Shown piece after piece: positions 1-54,323 of a stretch of 64,000 nt of DNA. The position numbers and the translations under genes are program-made. The stretch is taken from positions 121,094 through 185,093 of the forward strand of contig CAWBKT010000038.1 of the NCBI GenBank assembly GCA_963789385.1. Direction: 5' to 3'. This DNA comes from an uncultured delta proteobacterium. Lineage in GTDB: Bacteria; Desulfobacterota; Desulfobaccia; Desulfobaccales; Desulfobaccaceae. Each line of letters begins with the position of its first letter. The stretch's first letter is position 1. Under the pieces are notes generated by a model. That model had not been told where the DNA came from. It ran no database searches and saw nothing but the letters and a program-made list of their open reading frames with translations.

Positions 1-694
1 GAAACAGTTCCAGCTGTTCCGGGTTATTGGTGATGGTTGGTAATGCCTCCAGCCCCAAGGATTCCCGCAACTCAGTATTCACACCGACAGCCTGAGTATA
101 GCCCCGTTTGTAAATCTCGACGATTGACGGCGGCACCAGGGTCTCATCGTTGCGGCACTGCCATTGCCGGATAGACAGAATCATCTCGAACGGCATAACA
201 TTCATGGGGCACATTTCTTCACACCTGGAACAGGAGACACAGGCCCAGGGGGTATCATCCATCAGAAGATCCTCTTCCAGTCCCAGGATCACCTTGCGGG
301 CCAGGTTTCTGACCAGGAGCGCCGGATTTCCATGGGAGGCGGGACAACCGGATACGCAGGTGCTGCAGTTGAAGCAGTACTGGAGATTATCCGTGTTATA
401 AACGTCTTTCCACAAATTCTTGATTGATCCTTCTGCTAAATCTTTAGTGATCAAGTGTTTTAAGAAGAACTCCTTCATGAGCGGCCGCCAGCCAATATCC
501 GGATAATGGCCATAGAGGTTGTCGACGAAGGCGCCACCATCCGGCAGGACAACGCCCGCCTTACTCTCCACGAGGTTCAGCAGGCGGTGAGCTTCTTCAT
601 CGATCCAGGTGACATTGGCCTCACCGGAATAGAGGTTGTCGCAGGTTGCCCTGGAGATTGGTGGGCTTGACCAGGTACAGCCAGCCTTCCCCAT
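1..694 (-). CDS. HdrC-like 2x[4Fe-4S] protein; 3-prime end runs off the window and the start codon is unresolved
   Basis: The minus-strand frame is open from ~706 to base 1 with no stop. Hand translation gives ...NVTWIDEEAHRLLNLVESKAG...LQYCFNCSTCVSGCPASHGNPALLVRNLARKVILG...PWACVSCSRCEEMCPMNVMPFEMILSIRQW...VEIYKRGYTQAVGVNTELRESLGLEALP. It has two CxxCxxCxxxCP motifs spaced as in heterodisulfide reductase subunit C. In-frame ATGs at 706 and 694 overlap the upstream gene by 75-85 nt, and a GTG at 571 is an alternative. None has a clear RBS. Confidence 0.6.
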   Translation of the reverse strand, partial: MGKAGCTWSSPPISRATCDNLYSGEANVTWIDEEAHRLLNLVESKAGVVLPDGGAFVDNLYGHYPDIGWRPLMKEFFLKHLITKDLAEGSIKNLWKDVYNTDNLQYCFNCSTCVSGCPASHGNPALLVRNLARKVILGLEEDLLMDDTPWACVSCSRCEEMCPMNVMPFEMILSIRQWQCRNDETLVPPSIVEIYKRGYTQAVGVNTELRESLGLEALPTITNNPEQLELF

Positions 695-1037
695 AAGGAT
701 CGTCATGAACCAGACTGGGCTGTTGGCGAACTTTGGGATTGACGGTCTCGATGACGCCATCCACCGGGGCTTCAAAGGAAGCCTTTCTTCCCTCCTTGAA
801 CAGGGAAAGGCAGATATGGTCTTGATAAGAGGTCCTGCCGATCTCGGGCAACTTGAGTCTGTCTGCCGTGCCGATGATTTTTTGAGAGAAATCATCCAAT
901 CCAACGCGCACCTGGTCCGTTCCTTCTAACGCTACCCAGGCATGGCCCTGATGCAAATAATAGGCATCGGTGGGTACCTGAAAGCCAAAGACATCTTTCA
1001 TTTGGGGTCGTTCAATAGGTTGTTGCTGAGGCTTCAT
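621..1037 (-). CDS. glycine-cleavage-H-like (lipoyl-carrier-like) protein
   Basis: 138-aa ORF. The segments YYLHQGHAWVALEGTDQVRVGLDDFSQKIIG, FEAPVDGVIETVNPKV and DPYGEGWLYLVKP follow the GcvH fold pattern. The gene is packed between the hdrL-type and hdrC-like genes. Confidence 0.7.
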   Translation of the reverse strand: MKPQQQPIERPQMKDVFGFQVPTDAYYLHQGHAWVALEGTDQVRVGLDDFSQKIIGTADRLKLPEIGRTSYQDHICLSLFKEGRKASFEAPVDGVIETVNPKVRQQPSLVHDDPYGEGWLYLVKPTNLQGNLRQPLFR

Positions 1038-1064
1038 GACATTTTTCTCCTTAAAGGTTTTGCC

Positions 1065-4000
1065 TTAGGTCGCTTTTGCCATCTCTAAGGCCGGCGAGAG
1101 TGCTGCCATGAGCTTGGCATCGATGGCAGCCATCAACTGTTTGTCACTCCAGCCCCTGACTTCGGCCGCATTGTTCTGGCACTCAACCGCACACATGCCG
1201 CAGGCCTGGCAAGCGGCGGCATCAATATCGATGCATTTATCCGCCTCATTATAGGATCTCGCCCCATACGGACAGATGTTCACACATCTCTGGCAGCGAA
1301 TGCACAAGGCATCTTTTATCGTGGAGGTGACCGCCGCGGTATGTACCTCGCGCCCGGACAGATAACTATAGGCCTTCTGAGCCGCCGCCTCGGCCTGCAG
1401 GATGACGCTCTGCAGCGGCATGGGCGAATGGGCCGTACCGGCAAGATAAAGACCCAGCTTCTGGAACTCGATGGGGCGCCATTTTGAATCCGCTTCGGCC
1501 AAAAAACCATCCTCGGTCAAGGAAACGCCAAAGGCATCGGCAAGTTTTTGGTTCGACTCTTCCGGATCCACACCGGTGGAAAGAACCACGAGGTCAGCCG
1601 GCAGCTCTATCTCTTCCTGCAGGACCGGATCCATGACCGTGACGACCGGTTTTCCTTCGACGAACTCCACCTCCGGCTTGTCATCCAGGCTGTAATTCAT
1701 GAAAATAATCGCCGGCTGATCTTGCCTTCCCGTAATACTGCTCGTAAAAGCCATACGTCATGATGTCGCGGTAGAGAATGAAGACCCGGGCTTCAGGATT
1801 TAGCTCCTTGATTTTCAGGGCATTGGCGATCGCCCACATACAGCAGATGCGGCTGCAGTAGCGGCGGCCTTCCGGCTGCCGGGAACCGACACACTGGATC
1901 ATCACGATATTCTCGACTTCACTGATATCAATGTCGCCGCTGGCCAAACCTTTCTTCAATTCCCCCTGAGTCAGTACTGCTTCGGAAGTGCCGTAGCCAT
2001 ATTCGGTGGTGGCGCCTTCATGTCCGCCGGTGGCCATGATCGCCGCCCCGTGACGCACATAGGTGCTTTCCCCGCTATCCTTAAAGAGCAGTTTTGAATC
2101 AAAGGAGCCAAGTGTACCGATGGTTCTCTCGATTTCACAGTTTAGATGGACAGTAATATTCTTATTTTCAAGAATTTTTACCTTCATATCCGTAGCCATC
2201 GCTACGGGAGACAGTCCATCAACCGTTGCCTGCACCTGCGTGCCGAGATAGCCTCCCAGGTGGGCTTCCTTTTCCACCAGGTGGACCGGCACGCCCCGGT
2301 CGGCCAGCGACAGGGCCGCGTGCATCCCGCCGATACCGCCGCCGATCACCAGCGCCGTCTGATTGATCGGCAGCGTGCTCACCTGCAGGTCTTGCTTTAA
2401 ACTTGAGCTTTTCAATCTCCGCTTTCATGTCCCAGGCGGCCCGTAAGGTCCAGTCCCCGTTGGCGAGGATCGATCATGCCTCTCCGGGCCAGGCTGAACA
2501 AATCAAAGATCTCCACCATGGCAGAGTTGAACCCTGCCTTTCTGGCCTCATTTTTCAATTTCCGCCGGTACATGAAAGGCTGGCAGGCACCGATCAGCAG
2601 TCGATTGCAGTCTGTTTTGCCGAAAAGCTCAACGAGTTCGCTGTCGCCATCCGTCTTGCAGATGGAATCAATGATATGGATAGCACCCACTCCAGGGTAA
2701 TGTTTCAGCTCGTCGCTGAGCATGTTCATAATCAATTCCTGCTGCCCCTGGTTTTTCCCCGCACTTGCAGAGGACTACTCCCACCAGAGGCAGGTCCCGG
2801 TTATGAACGGCCGGCTCGGGAATTTCCTCTTCCCGGGTGGTGTCCACTCCCAGACTGGTCAAAAATTTGGTGGCCTCGCCCGCTGCGGAAATACCGCTGC
2901 TCATGGCCTCGCTGATATCCGTGAGTCCCATCAGAGAACCGCAGAGGAAAAGGCCATTCTGGCCGGCAACCCTGATTTTACTCGCTGTCTCGGTGGCAAT
3001 CAGACCCCGGTCATCCAAAGATATATTCAGCAGATCTGACCATTTCTTATGGGTCTCGAAAGGTACCTGCCCCGTGGACATCACCACCAGATCGTAATCC
3101 AGTTCAAAAAACTCGTTGCCTTCGGGATCGAGATAGCGCATCTGCAGATTGCCGTCAGGCTTGAGCATGACTCCCTGCACCCGGCAGCGGACAAGCTTTA
3201 CCCCATGCTCGTCAACTGCCTTGTCCCGGTACTGTTGAAAGCCTTTGCCAAAGGTCCGCATGTCCATATAGAAAATTGTCGTCTCAACCTCCGGCCCGCC
3301 TTTTTCCTTGGCCAGAACGGCCTCTTTCAGGGCAAACATGCAGCAGATGGAGGAACAGTAGTCTCTTCCGTGACGTCTGTTGCGAGAACCCATGCACTGG
3401 ATCCAGGCAATGTTTTTCGCCGGCCTGCCATCGGACGGCCGTCTGATGACGTCACCCTGATAGGTGCCGGAACCGCTCAGCATCCGCTCAAAGGCCAGTG
3501 AGGTCACCACATCCGGTGAAACGGCGTATGACTTGGCATCTTCAAATTCCTTGGTATTATAAAGTTTAACTCCCGATGCCAGGATAATGGCCTGAACCTC
3601 CCGGGTCTCAGACTCGTCCTGGGCGTCCAGATTGATTGCCCCAGTCTGGCAGACATTGACGCATTCACCGCAGCGGGTACAGGCCTGTTTATCAATGAGC
3701 AGCATCTTTGGGGTGTTATGCGGGATTGCCTGATAGACCGCCTTCCGCTTGGTCAGGCCGTGGTTAAATTCATCATCAACCTCAACCGGACAGACATTGA
3801 TGCAGTCTCCCATTTCATTGCAGATGGCGGGATCGATGAAACGAGCCTTTTTCAACAGCTCTACTTTGTAATTTCCCGCATCGCCCTGCACCGCAGTAAT
3901 TTCGGTAAACGGCAGAATTTCGATATTGTCATGAAACAGGCTTTTGCGCATGCAGTATTGCGATGCGTACTCCCGGCCCACCATGGGCAACATTCGGCAC

Positions 4001-4179
4001 ATGCCGCAATGGTCCGTCGGGAATTGGTAATCAAGTTTTGCCAGAATGCCGCCTATCTGCGGGGAATCATCAGTCAATATGACTTTATAACCGGATTCAG
4101 CCAGCTCTATGGCCGCCTTAATCCCGGAGATGCCGGCACCGGCCACCAGGACTGTGCCTGTAGGCTTATTTTCAGCCAT
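1065..4179 (-). pseudogene. HdrL-type double-HdrA flavoprotein (about 1030 aa if repaired), split into 4 ORFs as sequenced
   Basis: ORFs 2668-4179, 2412-2735, 1681-2415 and 1065-1754 read consecutively as one protein. Module 1 has VAGAGISGIKAA and QCMGSRNRRHGRDYCSSICC. The linker has VVLCKCGEKPG and MYRRKLKNEARKAGF. Module 2 has VIGGGIGGMHAA and QCVGSRQPEGRRYCSRICC. The C-terminal 2x4Fe-4S domain has CIRCQRCVNICP and CQACGMCAVECQ. Frame changes lie near 2745 (an extra G in a G-run), within 2400-2470 (at least two) and near 1750. Confidence 0.8.
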
Positions 4180-4189
4180 AATACCGCTC

Positions 4190-5321
4190 CTATTTGACCT
4201 GACCGGTCACTTCAACCAGTTCATCCGATTTGAATCCTGCCAGCGGCAGTTCTTCGTCGACCGATCGACCCGCCTGATAATCGAATCGTGCCTGCGTCTT
4301 ATCGGCACATGCCCTGAACATCGGCATCAGATCAATATCATTGGGACAGGCACTCGTGCATTGACCGCAGCCGACACAATAAAGGCTCATATGGGTCATC
4401 CGGGTCAGATGATAAAACAAAGTGTCATTGGGCAGCTTCAGCATCCCGTTCTGGTCGGCCCACATCATGTACTGCTCGCCGTTGTGCCGGAAGGTGTCGG
4501 TGACAAAAACGCATTCCTTGCAATAACAGACCGGACAGGCCACCCGGCAATTGTAGCAGTTGACACAGTTTGCCAGTTTGTCTGCCAGGGCTTCGAAATT
4601 ACCGACTTCAGCCTGGAATTCGGCCATTTTTTTATCTTTGGCCTCGGTGCGCACCGCCACCAGCTTCTTTACCGCCTCGTCCCGGCCGGATGGAGCTTGA
4701 CTCGACCCCACGCCTGCTTTCTCCAGGGCCTTCTCACCCTTTTCGGTTAAGGCTTCGATGTAGACTTCGCCGGAACCGGCTCCCATGGACAACCAAGTTC
4801 AGATCAGCATTGGCGGCTGTGGGAAATTCACAGATCTTGCAGGCTCCACAAATATCAAAATCTTGCGCGGCAGTTTTCCCGGCCAGGGCGTTTTCCAAGA
4901 AAGCTTCCGATGTCCCGCCCTGCTCCTGAAATTTGGCGAAATCAGTATTCTCATAGCGGCCCAGACAATCTGCCCCAATTAACAGGACGTCATCGAGCGT
5001 CACCTGCTTTAACTTGGAGAGTTCGACCACGGCCCGAATCTCGCAGGGGCGCAGGACCATTGCCAGGCTGCGGCCCGATGGACGTGCAGTGAGCGATGAA
5101 GCGATTTTTGCCCCGCTCACGGCCGCGACCGGGGCAAAAGGGTCCACTTGAGAGGTATGGGCCGCAGAGGTGAGGAGTGACAGCCTGACCCCCTTATTAC
5201 CCTGCGCCATCGGAGCCAGGACGGCATCAACCGCACCATTTTCCAGCAAGCCCTTGAAAAAATGGGACAGCTTTTGATTCATTTCGTCTTTCTGAAAAGA
5301 CACTTTTGCGAATTTAGCCAT
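4190..5321 (-). pseudogene. FrhB/FdhB-like plus AsrA-type Fe-S protein, one frame change near 4785
   Basis: ORF 4734-5321 (LRPCEIRAVVELSKLKQ...LLIGADCLG, FrhB/FdhB-like) continues in another frame as ORF 4190-4792 (CVNCYNCRVACPVCYCKECVF and CVGCGQCTSACPNDIDL). The join reads ADLNLV / SMGAGSGEVYIEAL. Confidence 0.65.
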
Positions 5322-5341
5322 TTTCCGTTATCTCCGTGTCT

Positions 5342-5770
5342 TTAAACCGCCATTTGACCCAAGTTCCGAAGCGGGCTTGGTCCAAGCTGTTTTAATTTTT
5401 CCGTCATTTCAACTGCCACTTCCTGCAGCATGGTTCCTTCACTGGCGGCGATCCACCGCAGCCAGAACCGGTCTTCGCCAATCCCGAACAGCTTTAGAAC
5501 CTCGGTAAGATTCGCCACCCGGCGCCGTGCCTTAAAATTGCCATTGATGTAATGACAATCTCCGGGCCAGCAGCCCCCGATCAAGACACCGTCAGCGCCG
5601 TTCAGGAAGGCCTTGATGACAAATTTTGGATCAACCATGCCGCTGCACATAACTCTGATGATCTTAATATTGGACGGGTACGAAAGACGTGAAGTACCGG
5701 CAAGATCGGCAGCGGTAAAAGTGCACCAGTTGCAAAAAAAAGCCACTATTTGGGGTTCAAACTCGCTCAT
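5342..5770 (-). CDS. mvhD: MvhD-like (methyl-viologen-reducing hydrogenase delta subunit family) [2Fe-2S] protein
   Basis: 142-aa ORF with IVAFFCNWCTFTAADLAG, IIRVMCSGMV and GADGVLIGGCWPGDCHY, the MvhD/FlpD signature. It lies directly downstream of an hdrA-type gene. Confidence 0.88.
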   Translation of the reverse strand: MSEFEPQIVAFFCNWCTFTAADLAGTSRLSYPSNIKIIRVMCSGMVDPKFVIKAFLNGADGVLIGGCWPGDCHYINGNFKARRRVANLTEVLKLFGIGEDRFWLRWIAASEGTMLQEVAVEMTEKLKQLGPSPLRNLGQMAV

Positions 5771-5783
5771 CGCATCAAACTCC

Positions 5784-8700
5784 TTAATGAAGTAAAAGAC
5801 CGTCTATTTCAGCAAAAATCTGCTTATCAGTAAAATGTCTGACTTTGGCAGCGCCGCTCGGGCAAATGCCGGAGCAGCTCCCGCATCCTTTACAAATAGC
5901 GCTGTTGACTTCGCTGATTCCGGCAAAATTATTGAATTCAATGGCCGTATAGGCGCACAGGCCTATACACAGCTGGCAGCCGACGCAGATATCAGGGTCG
6001 ATACTTGATATCATGGGAGGAATCTCGACCTGCCCCGCCGAACTCAGCGCCAGGCATTCCGCCGCGGCACCCTTTGCCTGGGCCACGGTGTCCGGAATAT
6101 CCTTCGGTCCCTGGCAGGTTCCAGCCAGGAAAACGCCGCTCGTGGGAGTGGATACGGGCGCCAGCTTCGGGTGCGACTCTTGAAAGAAACCATCCTGGCC
6201 GATGCCGATCCCGAATTTGCGCATGACGTCCGGGGCATCCGGTCTCGGTTCCATCGCCGTGCAGAGGATAACCATCTCCACCTGAATCTCGATCATGCGG
6301 CCGGATAGAGTATCTTCTCCCTTTACAGTCAGAATGCCGTCTTCGTCTTCGGTAATGGAACCGGCCTTGCCGCGGATCATCTTGACTCCTTCGGCCTGGA
6401 CCTTCTGGTAGAATTCCTCATATCCTTTGCCGAAACAGCGCATATCGATGTAGAAGTTATAGATTTCGGTATGGTGGCCGCATTTGTCTTTCAGCAGATG
6501 AGCATATTTGAGGGCATACATGCAGCAGGTGCGGGAGCAGTATTCGTGGTAATTTTTGTCCCGGCTGCCGATGCAATGCAAGATCGCCACGCTCTTGGGC
6601 GGATCGGTAAATTTCAGTGGATCTTGCAGATCACGCTTTAAGAGTTTGCCGGACGTCGGCCCGGTGGCGTTGGACAGGCGCTCGAATTCGATATTGGTGA
6701 AGACGTTCCGGTACTTGCCGTAGCCGTACTGGGTCATCTTGACCGGGTTCATGGGATCAAAGCCGGTGGCAATGATAATGGAGCCGACGTCGATGGTCTC
6801 CTTCTTATCGGTCATCTCATGATCGATGGCTCCGGCCTGGCAGGCATCGACGCAGAGCTTGCACTCGCAGCAGCCGCCGCAATCCACGCAGCGGGCCGCT
6901 TCGGCCCTGGCCTGCTCCTCGGTGAATCCCAGCTCGATTTCATCGTAATTATTGATCCTTTTGGCAACCGGCAGCATGGGCATTTCAGCCCGGGGTTGAA
7001 CCTTCACGTCTTTCGGAATCGGCTTCCAGGCATTTCCGGCCGGTTTTGGTGGCCGGTTTTCGGTAAGGTCCTCACCCTGCAGGTACTTGTCGATGGAGAT
7101 AGCCACCTGTTGTCCGGCGGCCACCGCTTCGACGGCGATGGATGGACCGGTAAAGACGTCCCCGCCGGTAAATATGCCTGGGTAGGTGGTCTCATAGGTC
7201 ACCGGATCGGCCACGATCGTTCCCCACCTGGTTAATTCGACTCCTTCCGTGCCTTCCAGAAAACCGGTGTCGACTCTTTGCCCGATGGCCGGAACAATCA
7301 TGTCGCATTCGACGTCAAATTCCGAATCGGCCACCGGGACCGGTCTTCTTCGGCCCGAGGCATCCGGCTCTCCCAACTCCATTTTGATGCAGCGCAGACC
7401 GCACACCTTACCATTTTCACTCAGGACCTCAGTGGGAGCCACCAGCAGTTCGATCTTGATACCTTCTTCCTCGGCGGCCTTGATCTCGTGTTTTGAGGCC
7501 GGTATCTCCTCTCTACTCCGCCGGTACAGCATCGTCACCTCGGAAGCGCCCTGCCTGAGGGCCTCGCGCGCCGAGTCGATGGCCACATCGCCGCCGCCGA
7601 CGATCGCCACCTTCTTGCCGGTCTGAACCGCTTCCTTCAGGTTGAGACTCCAGAGGTAATCAATGCCGCAGCAGACACCTTCGCACTCTTCGTTCTCGAT
7701 TTTCAACTTCATACTGCCCTGGGCTCCGACCGCCAGAAAGACCGCCTTAAATCCTTCCTGGAACAAACCGGCAATGGGACGATCCTGGCCGATGATGGCG
7801 TTCAGTTGAATATCCACCCCCAGCTTCTTGATGTAATTGATCTCCCGTTCCAGAATCTCAGGCGGCAACCGGTAGTCCGGTATGCCGGCGCGCAGCATGC
7901 CGCCGGCAAAGGGCGCCTGCTCGAAAACCGTGATGTGATAGCCTTGTTGGGCGAGAAAGTAAGCGGCGGAAAGACCTGCCGGACCAGCGCCGATTATGGC
8001 CACCTTCTCAGTTTCGGGCTTTTTCTCGATCTCCGGCACCGGCAGCGTCTCCCAGTCAACCTGATCCGCGGCGAACCGTTTCAACTGGCAGATGGCCAGC
8101 GGCGAATCGACATCCTGCCGGCGGCAGACCATCTCGCAGGGAGCCGGGCAGACGCGGCCAAGCGACCCGGGAAACGGCATGGTTTCCATGATTACTTTAA
8201 GTGATTCTTCATATCTGCCGGCCTTGATCAGGGCAACAAACCCCTGGATGTTGATACCGGCCGGACAGGTCTGCACGCAGGGCCCCCGATCGTATTTCTC
8301 AATGGCATAGCGGACCGGCACCGCCTGGGGAAAGGAGATATAGATGGCCTTGCGCATCTTCGTCCCCACATCCCATTCATTCGGTGACTCGACCGGACAG
8401 ACCTTGGCACAGTCTCCGCAGCCGGTGCAATTGGTCTTCACATAGCGGGAGCGCTGGTTGACATTGACTTTAAAATTGCCGACAAAGCCGCTGATGCTTT
8501 CCACTTCGCTATTGGTCATCAAGTGGATATTCTTGTCCTGGCCGACCGCCACCATTTTCGGGGTACCGATACAGGCCGCACAGTCCAGGGTCGGAAAAGT
8601 CTTGTCATACTGGAGCATGTGCCCCCCGACAGTCGGCTGCCGTTCCACCAGGTAGACCTGATTGCCTGAGCTGGCAATATCCAGGGACGCCTGCATACCG

Positions 8701-9158
8701 GCGATGCCGGCGCCGACCACCAGAGTGTTGGGATTGACCGAAAATGTGCTCGGGAAAAGCTCACTCTGATTGGTGACCCGCATCAATCCGGCCCTGACCA
8801 GGACGATCGCCTTTGCCGTCGCCTCGTCCTCGCTCTCCGTCACCCAGGACCCGTGTTCCCGGACACAGACCATGTGGAAAGCCCGGTAGGGGTTCAACCC
8901 CGCCCGTTGACAGGCAGACCGGAAGGTTTTTTCGTGCATGCGGGGCGAGCAGGAGGCCACCACCACATGGGTGAGATTAAGTTTTTTGATTTCCTTTTCG
9001 ATGAGGTCTTGTCCGGGATCAGAGCACATGAACAGATAATCATGGGAAACCACGACCCCCGGGAAGGTGGCGGCATATTTGGCCACCTCCTCCACCCTGA
9101 CCCGATAGGCAATATTGATCCCGCAGTGGCAGATGAAAAACCCGATTCGCTCAGACAT
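5784..9158 (-). CDS. HdrA-family flavoprotein with an inserted GltD/NfnB-like NAD(P)H module (1124 aa, intact)
   Basis: N-terminal Cys cluster IGFFICHCGINIA. FAD fold VVGAGIAGMQASLD. Inserted unit with GRVCPAPCEMVCRR, VAIIGAGPAGLSAAYFLAQQGY and VAIVGGGDVAIDSAR. HdrA core HCIGSRDKNYHEYCSRTCCMYALK. C-terminal ferredoxin motifs CVGCQLCIGLC and CKGCGSCSGICP. Confidence 0.88.
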   Translation of the reverse strand: MSERIGFFICHCGINIAYRVRVEEVAKYAATFPGVVVSHDYLFMCSDPGQDLIEKEIKKLNLTHVVVASCSPRMHEKTFRSACQRAGLNPYRAFHMVCVREHGSWVTESEDEATAKAIVLVRAGLMRVTNQSELFPSTFSVNPNTLVVGAGIAGMQASLDIASSGNQVYLVERQPTVGGHMLQYDKTFPTLDCAACIGTPKMVAVGQDKNIHLMTNSEVESISGFVGNFKVNVNQRSRYVKTNCTGCGDCAKVCPVESPNEWDVGTKMRKAIYISFPQAVPVRYAIEKYDRGPCVQTCPAGINIQGFVALIKAGRYEESLKVIMETMPFPGSLGRVCPAPCEMVCRRQDVDSPLAICQLKRFAADQVDWETLPVPEIEKKPETEKVAIIGAGPAGLSAAYFLAQQGYHITVFEQAPFAGGMLRAGIPDYRLPPEILEREINYIKKLGVDIQLNAIIGQDRPIAGLFQEGFKAVFLAVGAQGSMKLKIENEECEGVCCGIDYLWSLNLKEAVQTGKKVAIVGGGDVAIDSAREALRQGASEVTMLYRRSREEIPASKHEIKAAEEEGIKIELLVAPTEVLSENGKVCGLRCIKMELGEPDASGRRRPVPVADSEFDVECDMIVPAIGQRVDTGFLEGTEGVELTRWGTIVADPVTYETTYPGIFTGGDVFTGPSIAVEAVAAGQQVAISIDKYLQGEDLTENRPPKPAGNAWKPIPKDVKVQPRAEMPMLPVAKRINNYDEIELGFTEEQARAEAARCVDCGGCCECKLCVDACQAGAIDHEMTDKKETIDVGSIIIATGFDPMNPVKMTQYGYGKYRNVFTNIEFERLSNATGPTSGKLLKRDLQDPLKFTDPPKSVAILHCIGSRDKNYHEYCSRTCCMYALKYAHLLKDKCGHHTEIYNFYIDMRCFGKGYEEFYQKVQAEGVKMIRGKAGSITEDEDGILTVKGEDTLSGRMIEIQVEMVILCTAMEPRPDAPDVMRKFGIGIGQDGFFQESHPKLAPVSTPTSGVFLAGTCQGPKDIPDTVAQAKGAAAECLALSSAGQVEIPPMISSIDPDICVGCQLCIGLCAYTAIEFNNFAGISEVNSAICKGCGSCSGICPSGAAKVRHFTDKQIFAEIDGLLLH

Positions 9159-11463
9159 GAGCGCCCTCCTGAAATACCTTTATGTTGTTTTTTCCGGCTC
9201 CAGCCAATCTGTTTGACAGATCGACCGACTGCAGAAGAAGTTCCGCCATATCTATCACTTTTATCTTATTGCCGGCGCCCAGCCTGGCAATGGATTCATT
9301 AAGCACCCGGATGCAGTACGGACATGCCGTGGCGATCACGCCGGCGCCAGTCCCGATGGCCTCTTTAATCCGAATTTCTCCAAGGCTTTCTTTGCCAACC
9401 CGGTCTTTCCACAGCCCGCCGCCGCCGCCGCCGCAACAGAAGCTCCGCTCCCGGTTGTTTTGCATTTCGATTAATTGAATGCCGGGTATGGCTGCCAATA
9501 TTCTGCGGGGTGCCTCGTATATGCCGGAATGCCTGCCAAGATAACATGGATCATGGTAAGTCACTTTAAGATCAACCCTGTTGCTGGGGTTGATAGCGCC
9601 CTTCTGAATGAGTTCGTCCAGCAGTTCAGTGTAGTGAACCGTAGTTATGTTCTTGAGACCGTCATAATTTTGCTTGAATGAATTCAGGCAGTGGGGCGAG
9701 ATGGTCAGGATTTTGGCAACGCCAGCCGTTAAAAACATTTCGGTATTCTTTTTGGCCAGTTCGGCGGCGAGATCGGCAGCCCCGATCTTGTCGGCCAGAT
9801 CGCCGCAGCAGCTTTCTTGTGTTCCAAGTGTTCCATAAGAAACCGCAGCGTAATCGAGCAGGCGCAAAAGAGCGATGCCAGCTTTTTGCTGCCTTTGCGG
9901 GCGCTGGTGTCATAGGCCGTGGTGCAGCAGGTAAACAGGCAAAATTCATGCTCTCGGGTAAAAGTCGGCAATTCTGTGCTACCCGCCCAATCCAGGCGAT
10001 TTTCCCTTTTTCCTCCCCACGGATTGCCTTCTTCCTCCAGACTTTCCAATGGTGCCTTAAAGGATTTCGGGAAACCTACGTCATCTGCAACATGACTGCG
10101 GACGGATTTTATCAGATCAATAATATTGATCCCGCGAGGGCATTGCGTCGACGCAATTGTTGCAGGAGGAGCAGGTCCAGGAGGCTTGATCGACGGAGAC
10201 GTTTGTGGCTCGGTCCAGGGCGATATCGCGCAGGACCTTCCGGGGGTTGTAACTATTAACCTCGTTCCAGGGACAGGCGCCGGTGCAGGCCCCACACTGC
10301 ATACAGCTCTGGAAGGTGTCGCCCACGTCCTTGCGGACCGCTTCCAGGTTGGCCGGGGATTCCCGCAGGGCCTTTTGTTTCAGGGTAGTCAGAAAGATTG
10401 CCAGCGGCCGGTAAAATAGGTGCGAGAGTTTTCCGAACGGTATCATAATGCAAAGCATGCCGACACAGATGGCGACATGGATCACATAGATGACGTAGGT
10501 CATGATCGGCAGTCCGGCGAGACGCGAAAAATGGACCATGATGCCGGTGGTGGCCATGGTGATGATCAGCACCAGGAAGAAAAGGTCGGTAAAATCCGAA
10601 TATCGGTGAAGGTTTTCCTCTTTTTTGAACCAGCGGCTGTACAGCATCATGGTAGCGCCTGCCATCAGGGCAATTGTGGCATAGTATCCCAGCAACCTGG
10701 TCCAGTGCCAAAATGGGTGCACAATATCTGTCTGGAATTCCGACAGATACGCCATAACCAGAATTTCCATCGACACCCAGCCGGAGAACAGGAAAATGTG
10801 CCTCCACCAGGCGCTGCCCGGGCCGGTGCCGCATTGCCGCCACCGCTTCTGGGTGAAGTAGTTGAGGAAAAACACCGGGGCCTCGGTGACATAAAGATGC
10901 AGCGGTATCTTGGCGCCTTTCATGACCCCGCGATACATGTTGAAGGCATTCGAAAACAGCGCCGCAAAGACAAAACCGATCATGATCTGGTCGCCGAGGT
11001 GGACCAGATGGACCGGCGCGAAGGTGGTGAGCTCCACCCGGTCGGTAACCACGGGGCCATGAAAGATCAGGAAAAGCGCCACCACAAAGAGTGCCACGCC
11101 AAGAAAAGCACCGACTTCCCATTTCGGCTGGGTATAAAATTTCCAGGCAAGTCCCGTCCAGTCGTACTGGGTCATCAGCCAGCGCCGGGTGGCCATCATG
11201 GTCTCGGCCGGTTCCGCACCCCGGGGACAATCGGTATTACAGGTGCCGCAATAATAGCAGAGCCAGGGTTCCGGAGCCTCCATCAGCTTGTCCCGCAGGC
11301 CAAGCTGAAGATAGCGGTAAATTTTTCGAGGAAAGGTGTTTTCTCCGGTGGACAAAGGACAGGCGGAGGCACAATTGCCGCATTGATAACACGCTTCCAT
11401 GTCCCTGGCCCCCAGCTTCTGAACCTCGCTGTATAAATCAGGGCTGATATTGTTCTTCTTCAC
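9151..11463 (-). pseudogene. membrane-anchored HdrE/NarI-like + HdrC-like + CCG-domain (HdrB/D, DsrK-like) fusion; two compensating frame changes
   Basis: ORF 10117-11529 has the N-terminal motifs CYQCGNCASACP and CYYCGTCNTDCP, about six hydrophobic helices, then CMQCGACTGACP and CSSCNNCVD. The reading continues in the ORF 9729-10295 frame (CPRGINIIDLIKS...FCLFTCCTTAYD). It then returns to the original frame in ORF 9151-9867 (SCCGDLA, HDPCYLGRH, SFCCGGGGG, ACPYC). Frame changes lie near 10125 and 9880. The start is placed at GTG 11463, preceded by AGGGGA at 5-nt spacing, because the longer ORF would contain the promoter. Confidence 0.75.
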
Positions 11464-11513
11464 AGTTTTCCCCTTTAAACAATCAACACATGTCTGATGG
11501 TTTATTATATAAA

Positions 11514-11528
11514 GCAAGATATGTGCCA
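11514..11528 (-). promoter_or_regulatory. sigma-54 (-24/-12) promoter for the hdr operon
   Basis: The minus strand reads TGGCACATATCTTGCT, an exact TGGCAC-N5-TTGC. It lies 50-65 nt upstream of GTG 11463 and is followed upstream by a 500-bp AT-rich spacer. Confidence 0.75.
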
Positions 11529-12078
11529 CTTAGTTAACTGATTGATATTTCAAAAGATAAACAAATTAAAGGCTTGTCATTCCGTCAGCTAATCGTTGGA
11601 AAATCCTACACGTTAAAAGACTAAAATTGATAACTTATTGATTATATTAAAGAAATAATATTGGAAATTCCAACAGCTTCACAGGGGCCTTGGAAGAAAA
11701 ACAATAGAAAGGAGGATGTGATTTGGAGTGAGAAGAGGGGACGCGTTTTTTTTAAAAAAAACTGGTGATTAATTTTTTAACACCTCTGCATAAAATCTAT
11801 ACAGCTCAGAATAAGGACAGAATTGAACACCGGTTGGCGGATAAAAAAAAACAGAGAAAGATACTTAACAGTTAGAAGGCCCGAGATTTGAGAGTATTCA
11901 AAAACCCGGGTGATTCATTCGACTTGTTATGTCCTCATTTTAAAAGGATTCTGGCTATTAAGGGTTTATGCAATTGCAGTTGGCATGGATATTGTAGTTA
12001 CTGATTGCAAGACAAGTTAAGTGCTACTCAATTAGAGAACGCCTGCTTTATCAGGTGTTCGAATATAGGAGGCTGGCT

Positions 12079-12291
12079 ATGAAGACAAATATCGAGCGGA
12101 AAGACCAAAGAGTGCGGGTTTCTTTCAAGGGCGAAATCCAGTGTGTCTGGATGAATGCCACAAAGGAATGCACGCACATGCTGACCGGCCGGGTGCCATT
12201 CAAATTGTGTTCCCACAACTATGACTGTAAAGACTGTGCCTATGACCAACTCTTAGATGAATACGACCGACTCCAGGTAACAATACATTAA
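12079..12291 (+). CDS. small Cys-rich protein of unknown function (70 aa)
   Basis: An AGGAGG lies 7 nt before ATG 12079. The sequence MKTNIERKDQRVRVSFKGEIQ...CTHMLTGRVPFKLCSHNYDCKDCAYDQLLDE has a C-x-H...C-x5-C-x2-C pattern suggesting metal binding. The TAA stop lies inside the IS target duplication. Confidence 0.5.
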   Translation: MKTNIERKDQRVRVSFKGEIQCVWMNATKECTHMLTGRVPFKLCSHNYDCKDCAYDQLLDEYDRLQVTIH

Positions 12292-12295
12292 GTAT

Positions 12296-13537
12296 CATTA
12301 GTGTCCGGCACAAAAATTGAATAAAGGTATTTGGTTATCGACTGATGATGGAGGACGTTTTTTCGGACAGATGATTTCCCAAAGGTTCCGATGCTCCATT
12401 AACATGGTTTGAATAAGTCGGGTCAATTCCAAGATGCCAAAATTTATGGTGCTTTTGATTTTCAACCAGATAAGCAGCAAATAGGCTATCAAAGCAGTCC
12501 AGATTTGGATTAAGACGGCATTTCGGGAAGTGCCATAAAAAGTTTTGATTTTCAGGTTTTGTTTGACCCATTTGAAAAAAAGTTCGATCTGCCAACGTTG
12601 CCGATAAAGATCAGCGATGGTGAGGGCAGACAGGTCAAAGCGATTGGTTAAAAAGACATATTCTTTGCCGGTTTCGGGGTCTCGGTAGTGCACCCGGCGC
12701 AGGGTGTCAGGATAGCTGGTAAGACCATGCTTGAGTTCAAGCGGATGATCTGGTCAGCGAGAACCCTGTCAGGAACGGGATTTTCCAACGTTTCAATGAC
12801 CTCGAAGCAGGCATTGGCTTTCAGTCGGGTAACAAACCAGACACCTTTCTGATGGAGGGTATGCAGCCAGGTATAATCGATGTAACCACGGTCAAAGATT
12901 AATAGATCACCCGGATCGAATTGCAGTGTTTTGCCAACTTGGAGGTCATGTACCTTAGCTTCGGTCAGGATCACGCATTTCGGCAGCATATCTGTCATCA
13001 CCGTGTGCAACTTAATGCCAGCCTTGCGGGCTCGAAAGGAAGCCCAAGGGAAAACGCTGGCACAGAGATCGATGGTGGTTGAATCAAGGATTTTTATGTT
13101 GGACTGCCGTTTATTTTTTCGGGTCATCTCGCCATAGAAGCGGTGCAATAACTGGTGATAAATTTTTTCAAAAATAATAGCCGGACGTTGTTCATTAGCC
13201 TCTGCTAACGTAGAGCGTTTTACCTCGGACTGGCCCAAGTGATAAAGTTTTTTGACGTGTTGATTGAGACTAAACACCAAATCTCTGAGGCTCTTGCGAT
13301 TACTGAACTGGGCGTACAGCATGGCGACAAACTGTGACCAATACGAAAATGTTCTGGGCTTCGGGCCTGCCCAGGAATGGGTATCGACGATATGGTCGAA
13401 AACATGTCTCGGGTACTAGTTGTAGCATTTGCCCCAAGATTGTGTTAAGATGTGCCATAGTCTCCATAACTCCCTTATGTTATTTGGTTTTTAGCTAAAA
13501 CATTATAACATTAATGGCGGTTACGGGGACTATTTTC
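12296..13537 (-). mobile_element. IS4-family insertion sequence (1242 bp) flanked by the 8-bp direct repeat TTAAGTAT
   Basis: TTAAGTAT occurs at 12288-12295 and 13538-13545. The imperfect terminal inverted repeats are CATTAGTGTCCGGCAC at the left end and GAAAATAGTCCCCGTAAC as the reverse complement of the right end. A DDE transposase fills the interior. GC content is lower than in the flanks. Confidence 0.8.
12298..13467 (-). pseudogene. IS4-family DDE transposase, frame changes near 13400 and 12715
   Basis: The hand-joined reading is MAHLNTILGQMLQLVP / RHVFDHIVDTHSWAGPKPRTFSYWSQFVAMLYAQFSNRKSLRD...LIFDRGYIDYTWL... / LKHGLTSYPDTLRRVHYRDPETGKEYVFLTNRFDL...YRQRWQIELFFKWVKQNLKIK. This covers ORFs 12648-13322 and 12298-12693 plus an N-terminal piece. 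Confidence 0.85.
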
Positions 13538-14058: not shown

Positions 14059-14134
14059 TGGGGTGAGCGACGGGATTTGAACCCGCGGCCACCGGGGCCA
14101 CAACCCGGTGCTCTGCCCCTGAGCTACGCCCACC
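14059..14134 (-). tRNA. tRNA-His (anticodon GUG) with encoded G-1 and CCA
   Basis: The reverse complement is GGTGGGCGTAGCTCAGGGGCAGAGCACCGGGTTGTGGCCCCGGTGGCCGCGGGTTCAAATCCCGTCGCTCACCCCA. The acceptor stem GTGGGCG/CGCTCAC is 7 bp. The anticodon stem CCGGG/CCCGG carries the loop TTGTGGC. The T arm is GCGGG TTCAAAT CCCGT. An extra 5-prime G opposite discriminator C is typical of tRNA-His. Confidence 0.95.
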
Positions 14135-14294: not shown

Positions 14295-14960
14295 CTACAG
14301 GCCCAGATCCTGCTTGAATGTATCCAGGCCCACTTCGTCGATGAGTTTGCCCAGGCGCCTTTTCTTGTTCGCCTGGATAAACCAATTGATAATCTTGTCA
14401 ATGAGCTGCATGGCCTGATAGTCGTCCAGTTCATCGGCGATGACGTCCGCCAGGCGGGGCTTGATGCCGGAGAGGAAACCGCCGGCGTAGACTCGCCAGC
14501 CGTTTTTAAAGCCTACCAGGCCGATGTCCTTGGCAGAGCTTTCGGCGCAGGAATTGGGGCAGCCGGAGACGCCCATCTTAAATTTGTACGGCAGTTCATA
14601 GCCGTGATACTTGTCGTCCAGGGCCAGGCCGACCTTGACCGCATCCTGCAAACCGATGCGGCAAAAATCGGTCCCCGGGCAGATTTTGACGGACCGGACG
14701 CACAGGCCGATGGCGGACCCCGGGGTCATGGCCAGTTCGTGCCAGACCTGGTCCAGATCGGTTTCGTTCAGTCCCACCAGGACCACCCGTTGGGCCGAAG
14801 TGAGTTTAATGGCCTTCACCTTATATTTTTCGGCCACGTCGGCCAGGCGGCGCAACATGTCAAAATCGGTGATGATGCCCCCCGGGATGTGGGGGGCGAT
14901 GGCATATGAGGCTTTATCACGCTGCAGAATGGCCCCTTTTTCCAAAATGTCTTCAGCCAC
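14295..14960 (-). CDS. small nitrite/sulfite-reductase-like siroheme/[4Fe-4S] domain protein
   Basis: Contains KICPGTDFCRIG and VSGCPNSCAES, the SiR/NiR Cys cluster, plus ILEKGAILQRDKASYAIAPHIPGGI. The start is placed at GTG 14960, which has AGGAGG 7 nt upstream. The longest ORF begins at TTG 15071. Confidence 0.7.
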   Translation of the reverse strand: MAEDILEKGAILQRDKASYAIAPHIPGGIITDFDMLRRLADVAEKYKVKAIKLTSAQRVVLVGLNETDLDQVWHELAMTPGSAIGLCVRSVKICPGTDFCRIGLQDAVKVGLALDDKYHGYELPYKFKMGVSGCPNSCAESSAKDIGLVGFKNGWRVYAGGFLSGIKPRLADVIADELDDYQAMQLIDKIINWFIQANKKRRLGKLIDEVGLDTFKQDLGL

Positions 14961-15115
14961 TGCTGTTCCTCCTGAATATGAGCCTCCAGCCGGCACTAGA
15001 GCCGAACCCAAAGCTGGTGGCTGCAAGCTGACTGGTGAACCTTGATAAAAAAATGAAGCATTAAAAGACAATAAGTCTGAACAATTGACCAGGCAAGGAT
15101 TACCTGTGAAAAATT

Positions 15116-53104: not shown

Positions 53105-53114
53105 GGAGTGGAAG

Positions 53115-53543: not shown

Positions 53544-53561
53544 GCTTTAGGAGGCAGCCTG

Positions 53562-54257: not shown

Positions 54258-54323
54258 ATAAGCTTATACGGGCCGCCCGGTAAACGGCGGCCCGGTGCAG
54301 ATTTGAAGAGAGGACGAAAGGGA

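What the first reader, a model, noticed from the sequence alone, without database searches (positions are those of the whole stretch)
1..11528. Sigma-54-driven 11.5-kb operon for a membrane-anchored, multi-flavin Hdr-type complex with a GcvH-like partner
Seven co-directional minus-strand genes have overlaps or gaps of 30 nt or less. They are a [2x4Fe-4S + multi-TM HdrE/NarI-like + HdrC-like + CCG/HdrB-like] fusion (9151-11463), an HdrA carrying a GltD/NfnB-type NAD(P)H module (5784-9158), MvhD (5342-5770), an FrhB/FdhB-like Fe-S protein (4190-5321), a two-module HdrA of HdrL type (1065-4179), a GcvH-like protein (621-1037) and an HdrC-like protein (1-694, continuing off the window). An exact TGGCAC-N5-TTGC element sits just upstream of the first start codon. 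Each part is individually familiar. The combination is three HdrA/FAD modules, a pyridine-nucleotide module, a quinone-facing membrane anchor and a lipoyl-carrier-like protein. That is not the gene order of Qmo, DsrMKJOP, Hme, Flx-Hdr, Mvh-Hdr or the sulfur-oxidising sHdr-LbpA set as I know them. My inference is a membrane-coupled electron-bifurcating or confurcating module whose thiol/disulfide substrate could be protein-bound. This is my best candidate in the window for an undescribed system.
Basis: partly seen in the sequence, partly recalled or inferred. Interest (0 to 1): 0.7.

Follow-up and report, generated by a model that had tools for sequence, protein, structure and literature searches.

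The report
Conserved membrane-linked Hdr operon, GcvH-HdrC fusion
This is one error-ridden copy of an Hdr-type redox-enzyme operon that is widespread in sulfate-reducing Desulfobacterota, partly named in the literature but never studied biochemically; the new element is a glycine-cleavage-H-like domain fused to the HdrC subunit, and that domain does not look like a lipoate carrier.

Summary
The genes, their order and the sigma-54 promoter are real. Two corrections apply. The "GcvH-like" and "HdrC-like" ORFs are one gene, a GcvH-like::HdrC fusion that is intact (360-363 aa) in relatives. The 8-9 single-base frameshifts look like assembly errors, not decay.

The gene order is not rare. HdrF-like (QmoC-like + HdrD-like membrane fusion), HdrL (HdrA + GltD module), MvhD, FdhB-like, tandem HdrA, HdrC and HdrB recur in that order across 80 species-level Desulfobacterota genomes. 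The membrane gene sits directly upstream of HdrL in 55 of 58 evaluable loci.

The soluble six-gene core is already named "HdrABC/HdrL" in Syntrophobacter fumaroxidans, where the proteins are abundant only with sulfate. It is also drawn as locus VIII of Desulfobacterium autotrophicum. No biochemistry exists.

The promoter (TGGCAC-N5-TTGC) keeps its position in 13 related loci. It has two upstream palindromes and IHF-like sites, and relatives carry an adjacent sigma-54 two-component system.

The GcvH-like genes are a clade-specific accessory. Their family has the GcvH fold but no conserved lysine or cysteine in the hairpin, so a lipoyl or thiol carrier role is unlikely. The family is nevertheless repeatedly fused to Hdr-type modules.

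Verdict: a new variant of a known but uncharacterised kind, of moderate interest.

The parts
11514..11528 (-). Sigma-54 type -24/-12 promoter element, TGGCACATATCTTGC
   Evidence: It is the only match in the window (0.21 expected). The same element lies 62-68 nt upstream of the GTG start in 13 related loci.
11661..11675 (-). Upstream palindrome 1 (TGTTGGAATTTCCAA), a likely enhancer-binding-protein site
   Evidence: The motif TGTNGGANTTTCCAA occurs only twice in the 64 kb, both times here (0.01 expected). It is conserved in 12 related loci.
11596..11610 (-). Upstream palindrome 2 (TGTAGGATTTTCCAA), a likely enhancer-binding-protein site
11631..11643 (-). IHF-like site AATCAATAAGTTA (WATCAANNNNTTR), between the two palindromes
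   Evidence: The block is conserved in the alignment of related loci. Binding by IHF is inferred from the consensus only.
11535..11547 (-). Second IHF-like site TATCAATCAGTTA, just upstream of the -24 element
   Evidence: Inferred from the consensus only.
9151..11463 (-). Membrane subunit ('HdrF-type'). It has an N-terminal 2x[4Fe-4S] domain and a multi-transmembrane, His-rich region (QmoC-like). Its C-terminal half is HdrD/TfrB-like, with 2x[4Fe-4S] and two CCG domains. The copy is broken by a +1 indel near 10146 and a -1 indel near 9881.
   Evidence: The 41 intact orthologues keep 16 Fe-S cysteines, the CCG cysteines and 5-6 invariant transmembrane histidines.
5784..9158 (-). HdrL: HdrA with an inserted GltD/NfnB-type FAD/NAD(P)H module (1124 aa, intact)
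   Evidence: Homologues are 65-93% identical.
5342..5770 (-). MvhD/FlpD [2Fe-2S] electron-transfer subunit (142 aa, intact)
   Evidence: PF02662, 172 bits. NCBIfam VhuD scores 130 bits, below its cut-off.
4190..5321 (-). FdhB/FrhB-like Fe-S protein (376 aa in relatives), broken by a net +1 indel near 4795
1065..4179 (-). Tandem (two-module) HdrA, 1032 aa in relatives, broken by single-base insertions near 2723, 2465, 2395 and 1711
   Evidence: Both modules keep the C-x-G-S-R...C-S-x2-C-C motif.
1..1037 (-). GcvH-like::HdrC fusion gene (360-363 aa in relatives). It consists of a GCV_H fold, a ~70-aa conserved extension and an HdrC 2x[4Fe-4S] domain. It has a +1 indel near 641 and runs off the window edge.
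12079..12290 (+). Truncated N-terminal, Cys-rich fragment of a long GcvH-like paralogue. It is divergent from the operon and abuts an IS element.
   Evidence: tblastn with the 306-aa paralogue of L006 gives E=7e-16.

Best explanation
The region is the first 11.5 kb of a sigma-54-dependent operon. It encodes the Desulfobacterota 'HdrF-HdrL-MvhD-FdhB-like-HdrA-HdrC-HdrB' enzyme set. That set is the HdrABC/HdrL complex of the literature plus a conserved membrane subunit. In this clade a GcvH-like domain is also fused to the N-terminus of HdrC.

Shown:
- The domain content, the gene order and its conservation.
- The promoter architecture.
- That the fusion is real.
- That relatives have intact genes.

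Inferred mechanism:
- NAD(P)H is oxidised at the GltD-type module of HdrL.
- Electrons pass through MvhD and the FdhB-like polyferredoxin to the HdrA flavins, where flavin-based bifurcation (or its reverse, confurcation) takes place.
- The high-potential branch ends at the CCG-domain sites of HdrB and of the membrane subunit. There it would reduce a disulfide or trisulfide such as that of DsrC, or exchange electrons with menaquinone through the QmoC-like haem-b domain.
- The low-potential branch goes to ferredoxin.

Expression is probably switched on by the adjacent PAS histidine kinase and sigma-54 response regulator, which would bind the two upstream palindromes.

The frameshifts in the window are most likely consensus errors of a long-read assembly. 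The GcvH-like domain is most likely a non-lipoylated docking or adaptor domain of the HdrC/HdrB module. Its role is unknown.
For: Conservation: the full seven-gene order is present in 45 of 80 species-level loci. HdrF lies directly upstream of HdrL in 55 of 58 evaluable loci.

Cofactor ligands are conserved in 41 intact membrane subunits. All three HdrA modules keep the CxGSR...CSxxCC motif.

Literature: the HdrABC/HdrL proteins are abundant only under sulfate-reducing conditions in S. fumaroxidans, where a confurcating, DsrC-linked role was proposed (PMC5947623). HdrL and HdrF are named in D. autotrophicum, and its locus VIII has hdrL-mvhD-fdhB-hdrA4-hdrCB (PMC2702500).

Promoter: the match is unique in the window and keeps its position in 13 loci. 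The palindromes are unique to this spot. A sigma-54 activator gene lies within 10 kb in 42 of 80 loci.

Fusion: P0121-P0124 are 81-90% identical over 100% of the query. In-frame fusions without a stop codon occur in 7 other loci, short-read assemblies among them.

Frameshifts as errors:
- All relatives are intact.
- Third-codon-position differences dominate in the broken genes just as in the intact ones (0.58-0.69 versus 0.71-0.83).
- Frame breaks in the same operon run at 0.16 per kb in 'contig_'-named MFD/ERZ assemblies and 0.011 per kb in other assemblies.
- Further frame breaks lie elsewhere in the window.
Against: - No enzymology exists for this complex in any organism, so the electron donors and acceptors are inferred from domains alone.
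- It is not shown that all seven proteins form a single complex.
- The QmoC-like match is below the curated cut-off and Pfam sees no NarI-type family, so quinone interaction is inferred.
- Orthology to Sfum_0819-0824 rests on the published description and on Syntrophobacteraceae loci. It was not tested by direct comparison.
- Reads are not available, so genuine inactivation in this organism cannot be excluded. The indels are not in long homopolymers.
- That the MFD/ERZ assemblies are long-read is my own knowledge, not a tool result.
Confidence: 0.6

Rival explanations
1. The GcvH-like proteins would be lipoylated (or thiol-bearing) swinging-arm carriers, and their protein-bound disulfide would be the substrate of the HdrB/CCG sites. 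That would be analogous to LbpA in the sulfur-oxidising sHdr system.
For: - The GcvH fold is confirmed, with TM 0.85 to solved H-proteins.
- A Lys (K84) and a Cys (C75) are at least 90% conserved within the window's own subfamily.
- The domain is covalently fused to HdrC, and elsewhere to HdrA/MvhD and CCG proteins.
- Loci carry several paralogues, as with LbpA.
Against: - In the model the hairpin tip is E81-G82, with G82 invariant. K84 lies two residues past the tip.
- Across 150 family representatives no hairpin Lys is conserved (position 84: K 26, R 26, S 18, E 14, T 13), and no Cys either (position 75: A 39, G 35, C 18).
- Scores of 66-77 bits fall below the curated GcvH cut-offs of 116-117.
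- No lipoate ligase or synthase gene was found in the neighbourhoods examined.
Confidence: 0.1
2. The operon is genuinely decaying in this organism. On this reading the frameshifts are real mutations and the complex is not made.
For: - There are 8-9 indels in four of the six genes.
- The indels are not in long homopolymers.
- An IS element lies 0.8 kb upstream and has truncated a neighbouring GcvH-like gene.
Against: - There are no nonsense substitutions or larger deletions once the frames are restored.
- Substitutions relative to L010 are dominated by third positions in the broken genes, as in the intact ones.
- A +1/-1 pair 265 nt apart in the membrane gene is what random consensus errors would give.
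- Orthologous operons in other 'contig_'-type assemblies are broken at different places, about 15 times more often than in other assemblies.
- Unrelated genes in the window are also broken.
Confidence: 0.1
3. The operon encodes two separate enzymes rather than one super-complex. One would be a membrane-bound Qmo-like unit (HdrF-type, HdrL, MvhD). The other would be a soluble HdrABC-type unit (FdhB-like, tandem HdrA, HdrC, HdrB). The GcvH-like proteins would belong functionally to the sigma-54 two-component/M54-peptidase module, as sensors or adaptors, and not to catalysis.
For: - The S. fumaroxidans proteome paper lists only the six soluble proteins.
- Some loci carry HdrA-MvhD-FdhB sub-sets next to GcvH-like genes without the rest.
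- The module of histidine kinase, sigma-54 response regulator, Peptidase_M54 and 2-4 GcvH-like genes also occurs without any Hdr gene within 10 kb, for example beside an NDH-2-like flavoprotein (L137).
Against: - The seven genes keep their order and very short spacers across orders of Desulfobacterota.
- The membrane gene overlaps HdrL by 8 nt.
- The fusion of a GcvH-like domain to HdrC argues for a physical role inside the enzyme.
Confidence: 0.25

Closest known systems
HdrABC/HdrL of Syntrophobacter fumaroxidans (Sfum_0819-0824; PMC5947623)
   Same: The gene content and order of the soluble core are the same: HdrL (HdrA with an NAD(P)H module), MvhD, an FdhB-like Fe-S protein, HdrA, HdrC and HdrB. 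The same order occurs in Syntrophobacteraceae genomes (L018).
   Different: That description does not include the membrane subunit or any GcvH-like gene. Here HdrC carries an N-terminal GcvH-like domain. The S. fumaroxidans complex is known only from proteomics. Orthology to the Sfum genes was not tested directly.
Locus VIII, HdrL and HdrF of Desulfobacterium autotrophicum HRM2 (PMC2702500)
   Same: There, 'HdrL' is an HdrA/glutamate-synthase fusion followed by mvhD. Locus VIII has tandem hdrL/hdrA4 with fdhB, hdrC and hdrB. 'HdrF' is a transmembrane-domain protein with HdrC- and HdrB-like domains.
   Different: In that paper HdrF1-3 are described next to glpAB or etfAB, not in locus VIII. No GcvH-like genes are mentioned. 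Several of those proteins are selenoproteins, and no in-frame Sec codon is needed here.
QmoABC
   Same: Both combine HdrA-type flavoproteins with an MvhD-type module and a membrane subunit built from an HdrC-like 2x[4Fe-4S] domain and a haem-b transmembrane domain. The N-terminal half of the membrane protein aligns with the whole QmoC model.
   Different: The score (224 bits) is below the QmoC cut-off (300). The membrane protein carries an extra HdrD-like CCG half. There is an NAD(P)H module, and HdrB and HdrC are present. No aprBA genes were seen beside the cluster.
DsrMK(JOP) and HdrDE/HmeCD
   Same: A haem-b membrane protein is coupled to a cytoplasmic HdrD-type CCG protein that reduces a disulfide or trisulfide.
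   Different: Here the two are fused into one polypeptide with an added N-terminal ferredoxin domain. The DsrK model scores 63 bits against a cut-off of 400. There are no periplasmic DsrJOP-type subunits.
MvhAGD-HdrABC and FlxABCD-HdrABC
   Same: Both have an HdrABC core with MvhD (or FlxD). Flavin-based electron bifurcation at HdrA is established for Mvh-Hdr and proposed for Flx-Hdr.
   Different: There is no hydrogenase (MvhA/G) and there are no FlxABC genes. The electron input is a GltD-type module inserted into an HdrA. There are three HdrA modules and a membrane anchor.
sHdr-LbpA system of sulfur oxidisers
   Same: Hdr-like genes are clustered with GcvH-family proteins in several copies.
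   Different: The gene order differs. There are no lipoate-assembly genes nearby. The GcvH-like family here has no conserved hairpin lysine and carries a ~70-aa C-terminal extension.

Membership tests
HdrABC/HdrL-type cluster (S. fumaroxidans Sfum_0819-0824; D. autotrophicum locus VIII) | Contiguous genes for HdrL (HdrA + NAD(P)H/GltD module), MvhD, an FdhB-like Fe-S protein, HdrA, HdrC and HdrB | tested here: met
   The domains are found in the window and its relatives. The order is seen in 53 of 80 loci. HdrB lies beyond the window edge but follows in all close relatives.
HdrABC/HdrL-type cluster (S. fumaroxidans Sfum_0819-0824; D. autotrophicum locus VIII) | Sequence orthology to the named Sfum/HRM2 proteins | not testable with these tools
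   Neither genome appeared in the top-120 hit lists, and no tool fetches them by accession. Syntrophobacteraceae MAG proteins are 81-85% identical.
HdrA (heterodisulfide reductase subunit A family) | FAD-binding Rossmann motif plus the CxGxR...CSxxCC [4Fe-4S] motif and ferredoxin domains | tested here: met
   The motif is present in all three modules: CIGSRDKNYHEYCSRTCC, CMGSRNRRHGRDYCSSICC and CVGSRQPEGRRYCSRICC. NCBIfam HdrA2 scores 764 and 664 bits, both below the archaeal cut-off of 1100.
QmoC | Reaches the curated NCBIfam NF038018 score | tested here: not met
   The score is 224.5 bits against a cut-off of 300, although model positions 5-358 of 360 are aligned.
QmoC / NarI-type haem-b membrane anchor | Conserved transmembrane histidines able to ligate two haems b | tested here: inconclusive
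   Five or six His are invariant in the transmembrane region of 41 orthologues, and four or more hydrophobic segments are present. There is no Pfam NarI hit. Haem binding is not testable here.
HdrB/HdrD CCG proteins | Two CCG cysteine-rich domains (non-cubane [4Fe-4S] sites) | tested here: met
   PF02754 matches two stretches in the membrane protein (95 bits) and two in HdrB of relatives (87 bits). The CC pairs are invariant.
DsrMKJOP | A DsrK-level match and DsrJOP partners | tested here: not met
   DsrK scores 63 bits against a cut-off of 400. No such neighbours were found.
Glycine cleavage H protein (GcvH) | Reaches the curated TIGR00527/PRK01202 score | tested here: not met
   Scores are 66-77 bits against cut-offs of 116-117.
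Lipoyl-carrier GcvH/LbpA proteins | A conserved lysine at the tip of the lipoyl hairpin | tested here: not met
   The tip is E81-G82 in the model. Alignments to solved H-proteins place the lipoyl-Lys opposite G or R. No Lys is conserved across 150 representatives.
Lipoyl-carrier GcvH/LbpA proteins | The GcvH (barrel-sandwich hybrid) fold | tested here: met
   The GcvH domain has pLDDT 75-93. Foldseek against 1ONL/3A8I gives a target TM of 0.85-0.89 and an rmsd of 1.7-2.4 A.
Sigma-54-dependent promoter | GG-N10-GC with a TGGCAC/TTGC consensus, placed upstream of the first gene and conserved | tested here: met
Sigma-54-dependent promoter | An enhancer-binding-protein gene and upstream binding sites | tested here: met
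   Two palindromes are unique to this spot. A response regulator with a Sigma54_activat domain lies next to the operon in relatives. In the window itself the regulator would lie beyond the left edge. Dependence on rpoN is not testable here.

The most novel reading that the evidence does not exclude
The GcvH-like proteins with the conserved ~70-aa C-terminal extension are a previously unrecognised, cofactor-less partner family of HdrA/MvhD/HdrBC-type enzymes. They would act as a docking subunit, substrate adaptor or redox-state reporter. They are co-inherited with a PAS kinase, a sigma-54 regulator and an M54 peptidase, and they have been fused to Hdr modules at least three separate times (to HdrC, to HdrA-MvhD and to an FAD-oxidase/CCG protein). 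If so, they mark a new layer of control or substrate delivery for the still uncharacterised membrane-anchored HdrL-Hdr complex of sulfate reducers.
Probability: 0.3. Interest if true: 0.6.

Novelty: new variant of a known kind. Interest (0 to 1): 0.42.

Why it matters
Hdr-like complexes are thought to be the main cytoplasmic electron-bifurcating devices of sulfate reducers and syntrophs. Apart from Flx-Hdr and Qmo, almost none has been studied.

This operon is one of the most conserved of them. It is reported to be abundant during sulfate respiration in S. fumaroxidans. Its architecture would connect NAD(P)H, ferredoxin, a thiol/disulfide couple and the menaquinone pool in one unit.

Three results here give concrete handles for experiments in cultivated relatives:
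- The membrane subunit is a constant member of the operon.
- One clade controls the operon with a sigma-54 two-component system.
- A non-canonical GcvH-like domain is welded onto HdrC.

The window itself adds no new biology beyond being one more, error-laden, member of the family.

Tried and rejected
- Selenocysteine as the cause of the in-frame stops. Rejected: the membrane-gene frame shows five stops of mixed type within 88 codons, and the homologous sequence continues in another frame.
- Programmed frameshifting. Rejected: there are 8-9 sites with no shared motif, and the orthologues are intact.
- A Pfam NarI/HdrE family in the transmembrane region. No hit was found.
- Literature on GcvH together with Hdr in sulfate reducers or Desulfobacterota. 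Nothing relevant turned up.
- Pereira et al. 2011, the comparative genomics of sulfate reducers. The paper is not held in the library, so I could not check whether it already lists the membrane gene.
- Direct retrieval of the S. fumaroxidans or D. autotrophicum loci. Neither was among the listed hits.
- Structure of the HdrC part of the fusion. Confidence was low (pLDDT about 40-57) because only four fusion sequences cover it. Fold search therefore returned only GcvH structures.
- Scan for internal sigma-70 promoters and terminators. Counts were no higher than in shuffled sequence.
- Synteny beyond the promoter. It ends at the IS element.

Full report
**What is in the sequence**

On the minus strand of window 1-11529 the ORF list and profile searches find, in transcription order:
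- A protein with an N-terminal 2x[4Fe-4S] domain, a hydrophobic His-rich middle, a second 2x[4Fe-4S] domain and two CCG domains (9151-11463).
- A 1124-aa HdrA carrying a Fer4_20 + Pyr_redox_2 (GltD/NfnB-type) insert (5784-9158).
- MvhD/FlpD (5342-5770).
- An FrhB/FdhB-like Fe-S protein (4190-5321).
- A two-module HdrA (1065-4179).
- A GCV_H-domain ORF (621-1037).
- A Fer4 dicluster ORF that runs off the window (1-694).

The spacers are an 8-nt overlap, then 13, 20, 10 and 27 nt. All three HdrA modules keep the CxGSR...CSxxCC cluster motif.

**Frameshifts**

Four of the genes are broken.
- Comparison with intact orthologues shows a +1 indel near 10146 and a -1 indel near 9881 in the membrane gene, leaving 88 codons out of frame between them.
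- There is a net +1 indel near 4795 in the FdhB-like gene.
- There are single-base insertions near 2723, 2465, 2395 and 1711 in the tandem HdrA.
- There is one insertion near 641 in the GcvH-like gene.

Selenocysteine does not explain the stops. The homologous sequence continues in another frame, and the in-frame reading has five stops.

Several lines point to consensus errors rather than decay:
- Every relative fetched has single intact genes of 742-791, 376 and 1032-1042 aa.
- Against the L010 orthologues, third-codon positions carry 58-69% of the differences in the broken genes. The figure is 71-83% in the intact HdrL and MvhD.
- The same operon in other 'contig_'-named MFD/ERZ assemblies is broken at different places, at 0.16 breaks per kb against 0.011 per kb in all other assemblies. 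That these are long-read assemblies is my own knowledge.
- Genes elsewhere in the window are broken too. One is a DDE transposase at 12298-13322. Another is a second HdrL-type gene that changes frame near 49200.

Without reads, real inactivation cannot be excluded. I give it about 0.1.

**The last two ORFs are one gene**

Homologues of the GCV_H ORF are about 209 aa long. They have a conserved ~70-aa C-terminal extension.

In the window that extension lies in the frame of the 'HdrC' ORF. It continues without a stop into the HdrC sequence.

One is annotated by JGI as 'heterodisulfide reductase subunit C/glycine cleavage system H lipoate-binding protein'.

In-frame, stop-free fusions are present in seven other loci: L006, L010, L016, L027, L087, L088 and L089. 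L087 has an intact 363-aa ORF.

In these relatives the operon continues with HdrB. Two more GcvH-like genes follow (209 aa, and 293 aa with a Cys-rich N-terminal domain). On the other strand lie an M54 peptidase, a sigma-54 response regulator and a PAS histidine kinase.

**Promoter**

TGGCACATATCTTGC (11514-11528) is the only match in the window, with 0.21 expected. The true start is the GTG at 11463, behind AAAGGGG.

In 13 loci of the same clade a TGGCAY-N5-TTGCY element sits 62-68 nt upstream of that start.

Upstream are two copies of TGTNGGANTTTCCAA. They are the only two in the 64 kb, with 0.01 expected. Two WATCAANNNNTTR (IHF-type) sites are also present. All four are conserved in the alignment of related loci.

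A sigma-54 activator homologue lies within 10 kb in 42 of 80 genome loci.

This is the classic layout of an enhancer-dependent promoter. Other clades, such as the Desulfocapsaceae type, have a different conserved upstream block and no such element.

No excess of sigma-70-like promoters or terminators is seen inside the cluster.

**How common is the gene order**

The 1124-aa protein has thousands of homologues. The best 120 are 65-93% identical and come from Desulfobaccales, Syntrophobacteraceae, Desulfocapsaceae, Desulfopila and Desulfobacteraceae.

A scan of one genome per species with the FdhB-like protein returned 80 loci. I annotated them by tblastn with the L001 proteins.
- 45 loci show the full order: membrane gene, HdrL, MvhD, FdhB-like, HdrA, HdrC, HdrB.
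- 53 loci show the six-gene core.
- The membrane gene is directly upstream of HdrL in 55 of 58 loci that extend far enough.
- GcvH-like genes are present in 16 loci.
- A rubrerythrin gene follows HdrB in 14 loci.

The window is 80-86% identical in DNA to the nearest of these, so it is a further species of that clade.

**What is already known**

The D. autotrophicum genome paper defined HdrL as an HdrA/glutamate-synthase fusion followed by mvhD. It defined HdrF as a transmembrane domain plus HdrC- and HdrB-like domains. Its locus VIII has tandem hdrL/hdrA4 with fdhB, hdrC and hdrB (PMC2702500).

The S. fumaroxidans proteome paper calls Sfum_0819-0824 'HdrABC/HdrL'. It found all subunits abundant only when sulfate was present, and it proposed a confurcating enzyme linked to DsrC (PMC5947623).

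Neither text mentions the membrane gene as part of this cluster, nor any GcvH-like gene. Searches for GcvH together with Hdr in these organisms found nothing relevant.

The key comparative review (Pereira et al. 2011) is not in the library.

It is not met at the level of biochemistry.

**The membrane subunit**

NCBIfam aligns residues 10-352 with the whole QmoC model (positions 5-358 of 360). The score is 224 bits, below the cut-off of 300. Residues 378-741 align with TfrB/HdrD-type proteins. Pfam sees no NarI-type family.

In 41 intact orthologues the 16 ferredoxin cysteines, the CC pairs of both CCG domains and five or six transmembrane histidines are invariant.

It works like a QmoC or DsrM anchor fused to a DsrK/HdrD head. 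By score it is not a member of QmoC or DsrK.

**The GcvH-like domain**

The fold is that of the H protein. The pLDDT is 75-93. Foldseek gives a target TM of 0.85-0.89 and an rmsd of 1.7-2.4 A to 1ONL, 3A8I and 3AB9.

The case for lipoylation is poor:
- Scores of 66-77 bits are below the curated GcvH cut-offs.
- In alignments to solved H proteins the lipoyl-lysine falls opposite G or R.
- In the model the hairpin strands are 74-80 and 83-88. The invariant G82 is at the tip, and K84 is two residues further on.
- In 150 representatives of the wider family (167 clusters at E<=1e-30 among 1.84 billion representatives) neither that Lys nor Cys75 is conserved. The fold residues and the C-terminal extension (W143, G166, G167, W182) are conserved.
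- No lipoate ligase or synthase gene is near.

The link to Hdr chemistry is nevertheless strong. Besides HdrC, the family is fused to:
- an HdrA C-terminal ferredoxin, MvhD and a molybdopterin-binding domain (P0247, P0248);
- three GCV_H copies joined to an FAD-linked oxidase and a CCG protein (P0263);
- a dicluster ferredoxin (P0286).

In metagenome loci of at least 7 kb, 23 of 40 have Hdr-type genes within 10 kb. Most have a sigma-54 regulator beside a tandem array of 2-4 copies.

Some arrays have no Hdr gene nearby. One (L137) sits beside an NDH-2-like flavoprotein and a DUF1641 protein.

I therefore read the domain as a cofactor-less docking or adaptor module of unknown role.

**Mechanism (inferred)**

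NAD(P)H would enter at the GltD-type module of HdrL. MvhD and the FdhB-like polyferredoxin would wire the HdrA flavins together.

Bifurcation or confurcation would occur at an HdrA FAD. The low-potential branch would go to ferredoxin.

The high-potential branch would go to the CCG sites of HdrB and of the membrane subunit. There it would act on a DsrC-type disulfide or trisulfide, or exchange electrons with menaquinone through the haem-b domain.

Only the domain content, its conservation and the sulfate-specific abundance reported in the literature are established. Donors, acceptors, stoichiometry and whether the proteins form a single complex are inference.

**Verdict**

The interpretation as a membrane-coupled, multi-flavin Hdr-type bifurcating module under sigma-54 control is reasonable.

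The claim of an undescribed system is overstated. The operon is widespread and its core is already named.

The lipoyl-carrier idea is not supported.

What is new is the constant membrane subunit, the sigma-54 control module of this clade, and the GcvH-like::HdrC fusion, which belongs to a wider and unexplained GcvH-like/Hdr association.

Noticed in passing
window 12079-12290 (+): A truncated N-terminal, Cys-rich (CxWM...C...C) fragment of a long GcvH-like paralogue. It is divergent from the operon and ends at the IS element. Intact 293-306-aa versions exist in L001 and L006.
   Followed up: partly
window 12298-13322 (-): A DDE_Tnp_1 transposase split into two overlapping ORFs (profile positions 4-115 and 138-200). 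This is either another frame break or a decayed IS. Synteny with related loci ends here.
   Followed up: partly
window 48652-55256 (+): A second giant HdrL-type flavoprotein (HdrA parts plus a GltD module, more than 1400 aa) with a frame change near 49200. It is followed by MetV-like (53562-54257, DUF5981) and MetF (54303-55256) genes. This looks like an Hdr-linked methylene-tetrahydrofolate reductase set.
   Followed up: partly
window 14062-14133 (-), 14295-15071 (-) and 15116-15649 (-): A tRNA gene, a NIR_SIR sulfite/nitrite-reductase-type ORF, and a 177-aa ORF that combines a ribosome-hibernation (S30AE / 'sigma-54 modulation') domain with a cold-shock domain.
   Followed up: no
L131, L137, L127, L128 (metagenome loci); L137:5167-15112: A conserved module of PAS histidine kinase, sigma-54 response regulator, Peptidase_M54 and four tandem GcvH-like genes. 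It occurs without Hdr genes within 10 kb. In L137 it is followed by an NDH-2-like Pyr_redox_2 protein and a DUF1641 protein.
   Followed up: partly
proteins P0247, P0248, P0263, P0286 (representative library): Independent fusions of the GcvH-like family. Partners are ferredoxin + MvhD + a molybdopterin-binding domain; three GCV_H copies + an FAD-linked oxidase + a CCG protein; and a dicluster ferredoxin.
   Followed up: partly
window 1-1037 compared with L010:14293-14871: In the GcvH-like part only 39% of nucleotide differences fall at third codon positions. The other six genes show 58-83%. Possible causes are faster protein evolution or gene conversion among paralogues.
   Followed up: no
L014, L020, L028, L033, L034, L037, L038, L041, L042 (upstream of the membrane gene): Desulfocapsaceae-type loci lack the sigma-54 element. 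They share a different conserved upstream block (TTTCGGGCAGTCTGAGAAGCGATTTCCT...) and have a rubrerythrin gene after HdrB.
   Followed up: no
L004:18779-20266 and L062: In two Desulfobacteraceae-type loci a 495-aa TPR-repeat protein is inserted between the tandem HdrA and HdrC. The GcvH-like domain occupies the same position in the window's clade.
   Followed up: partly
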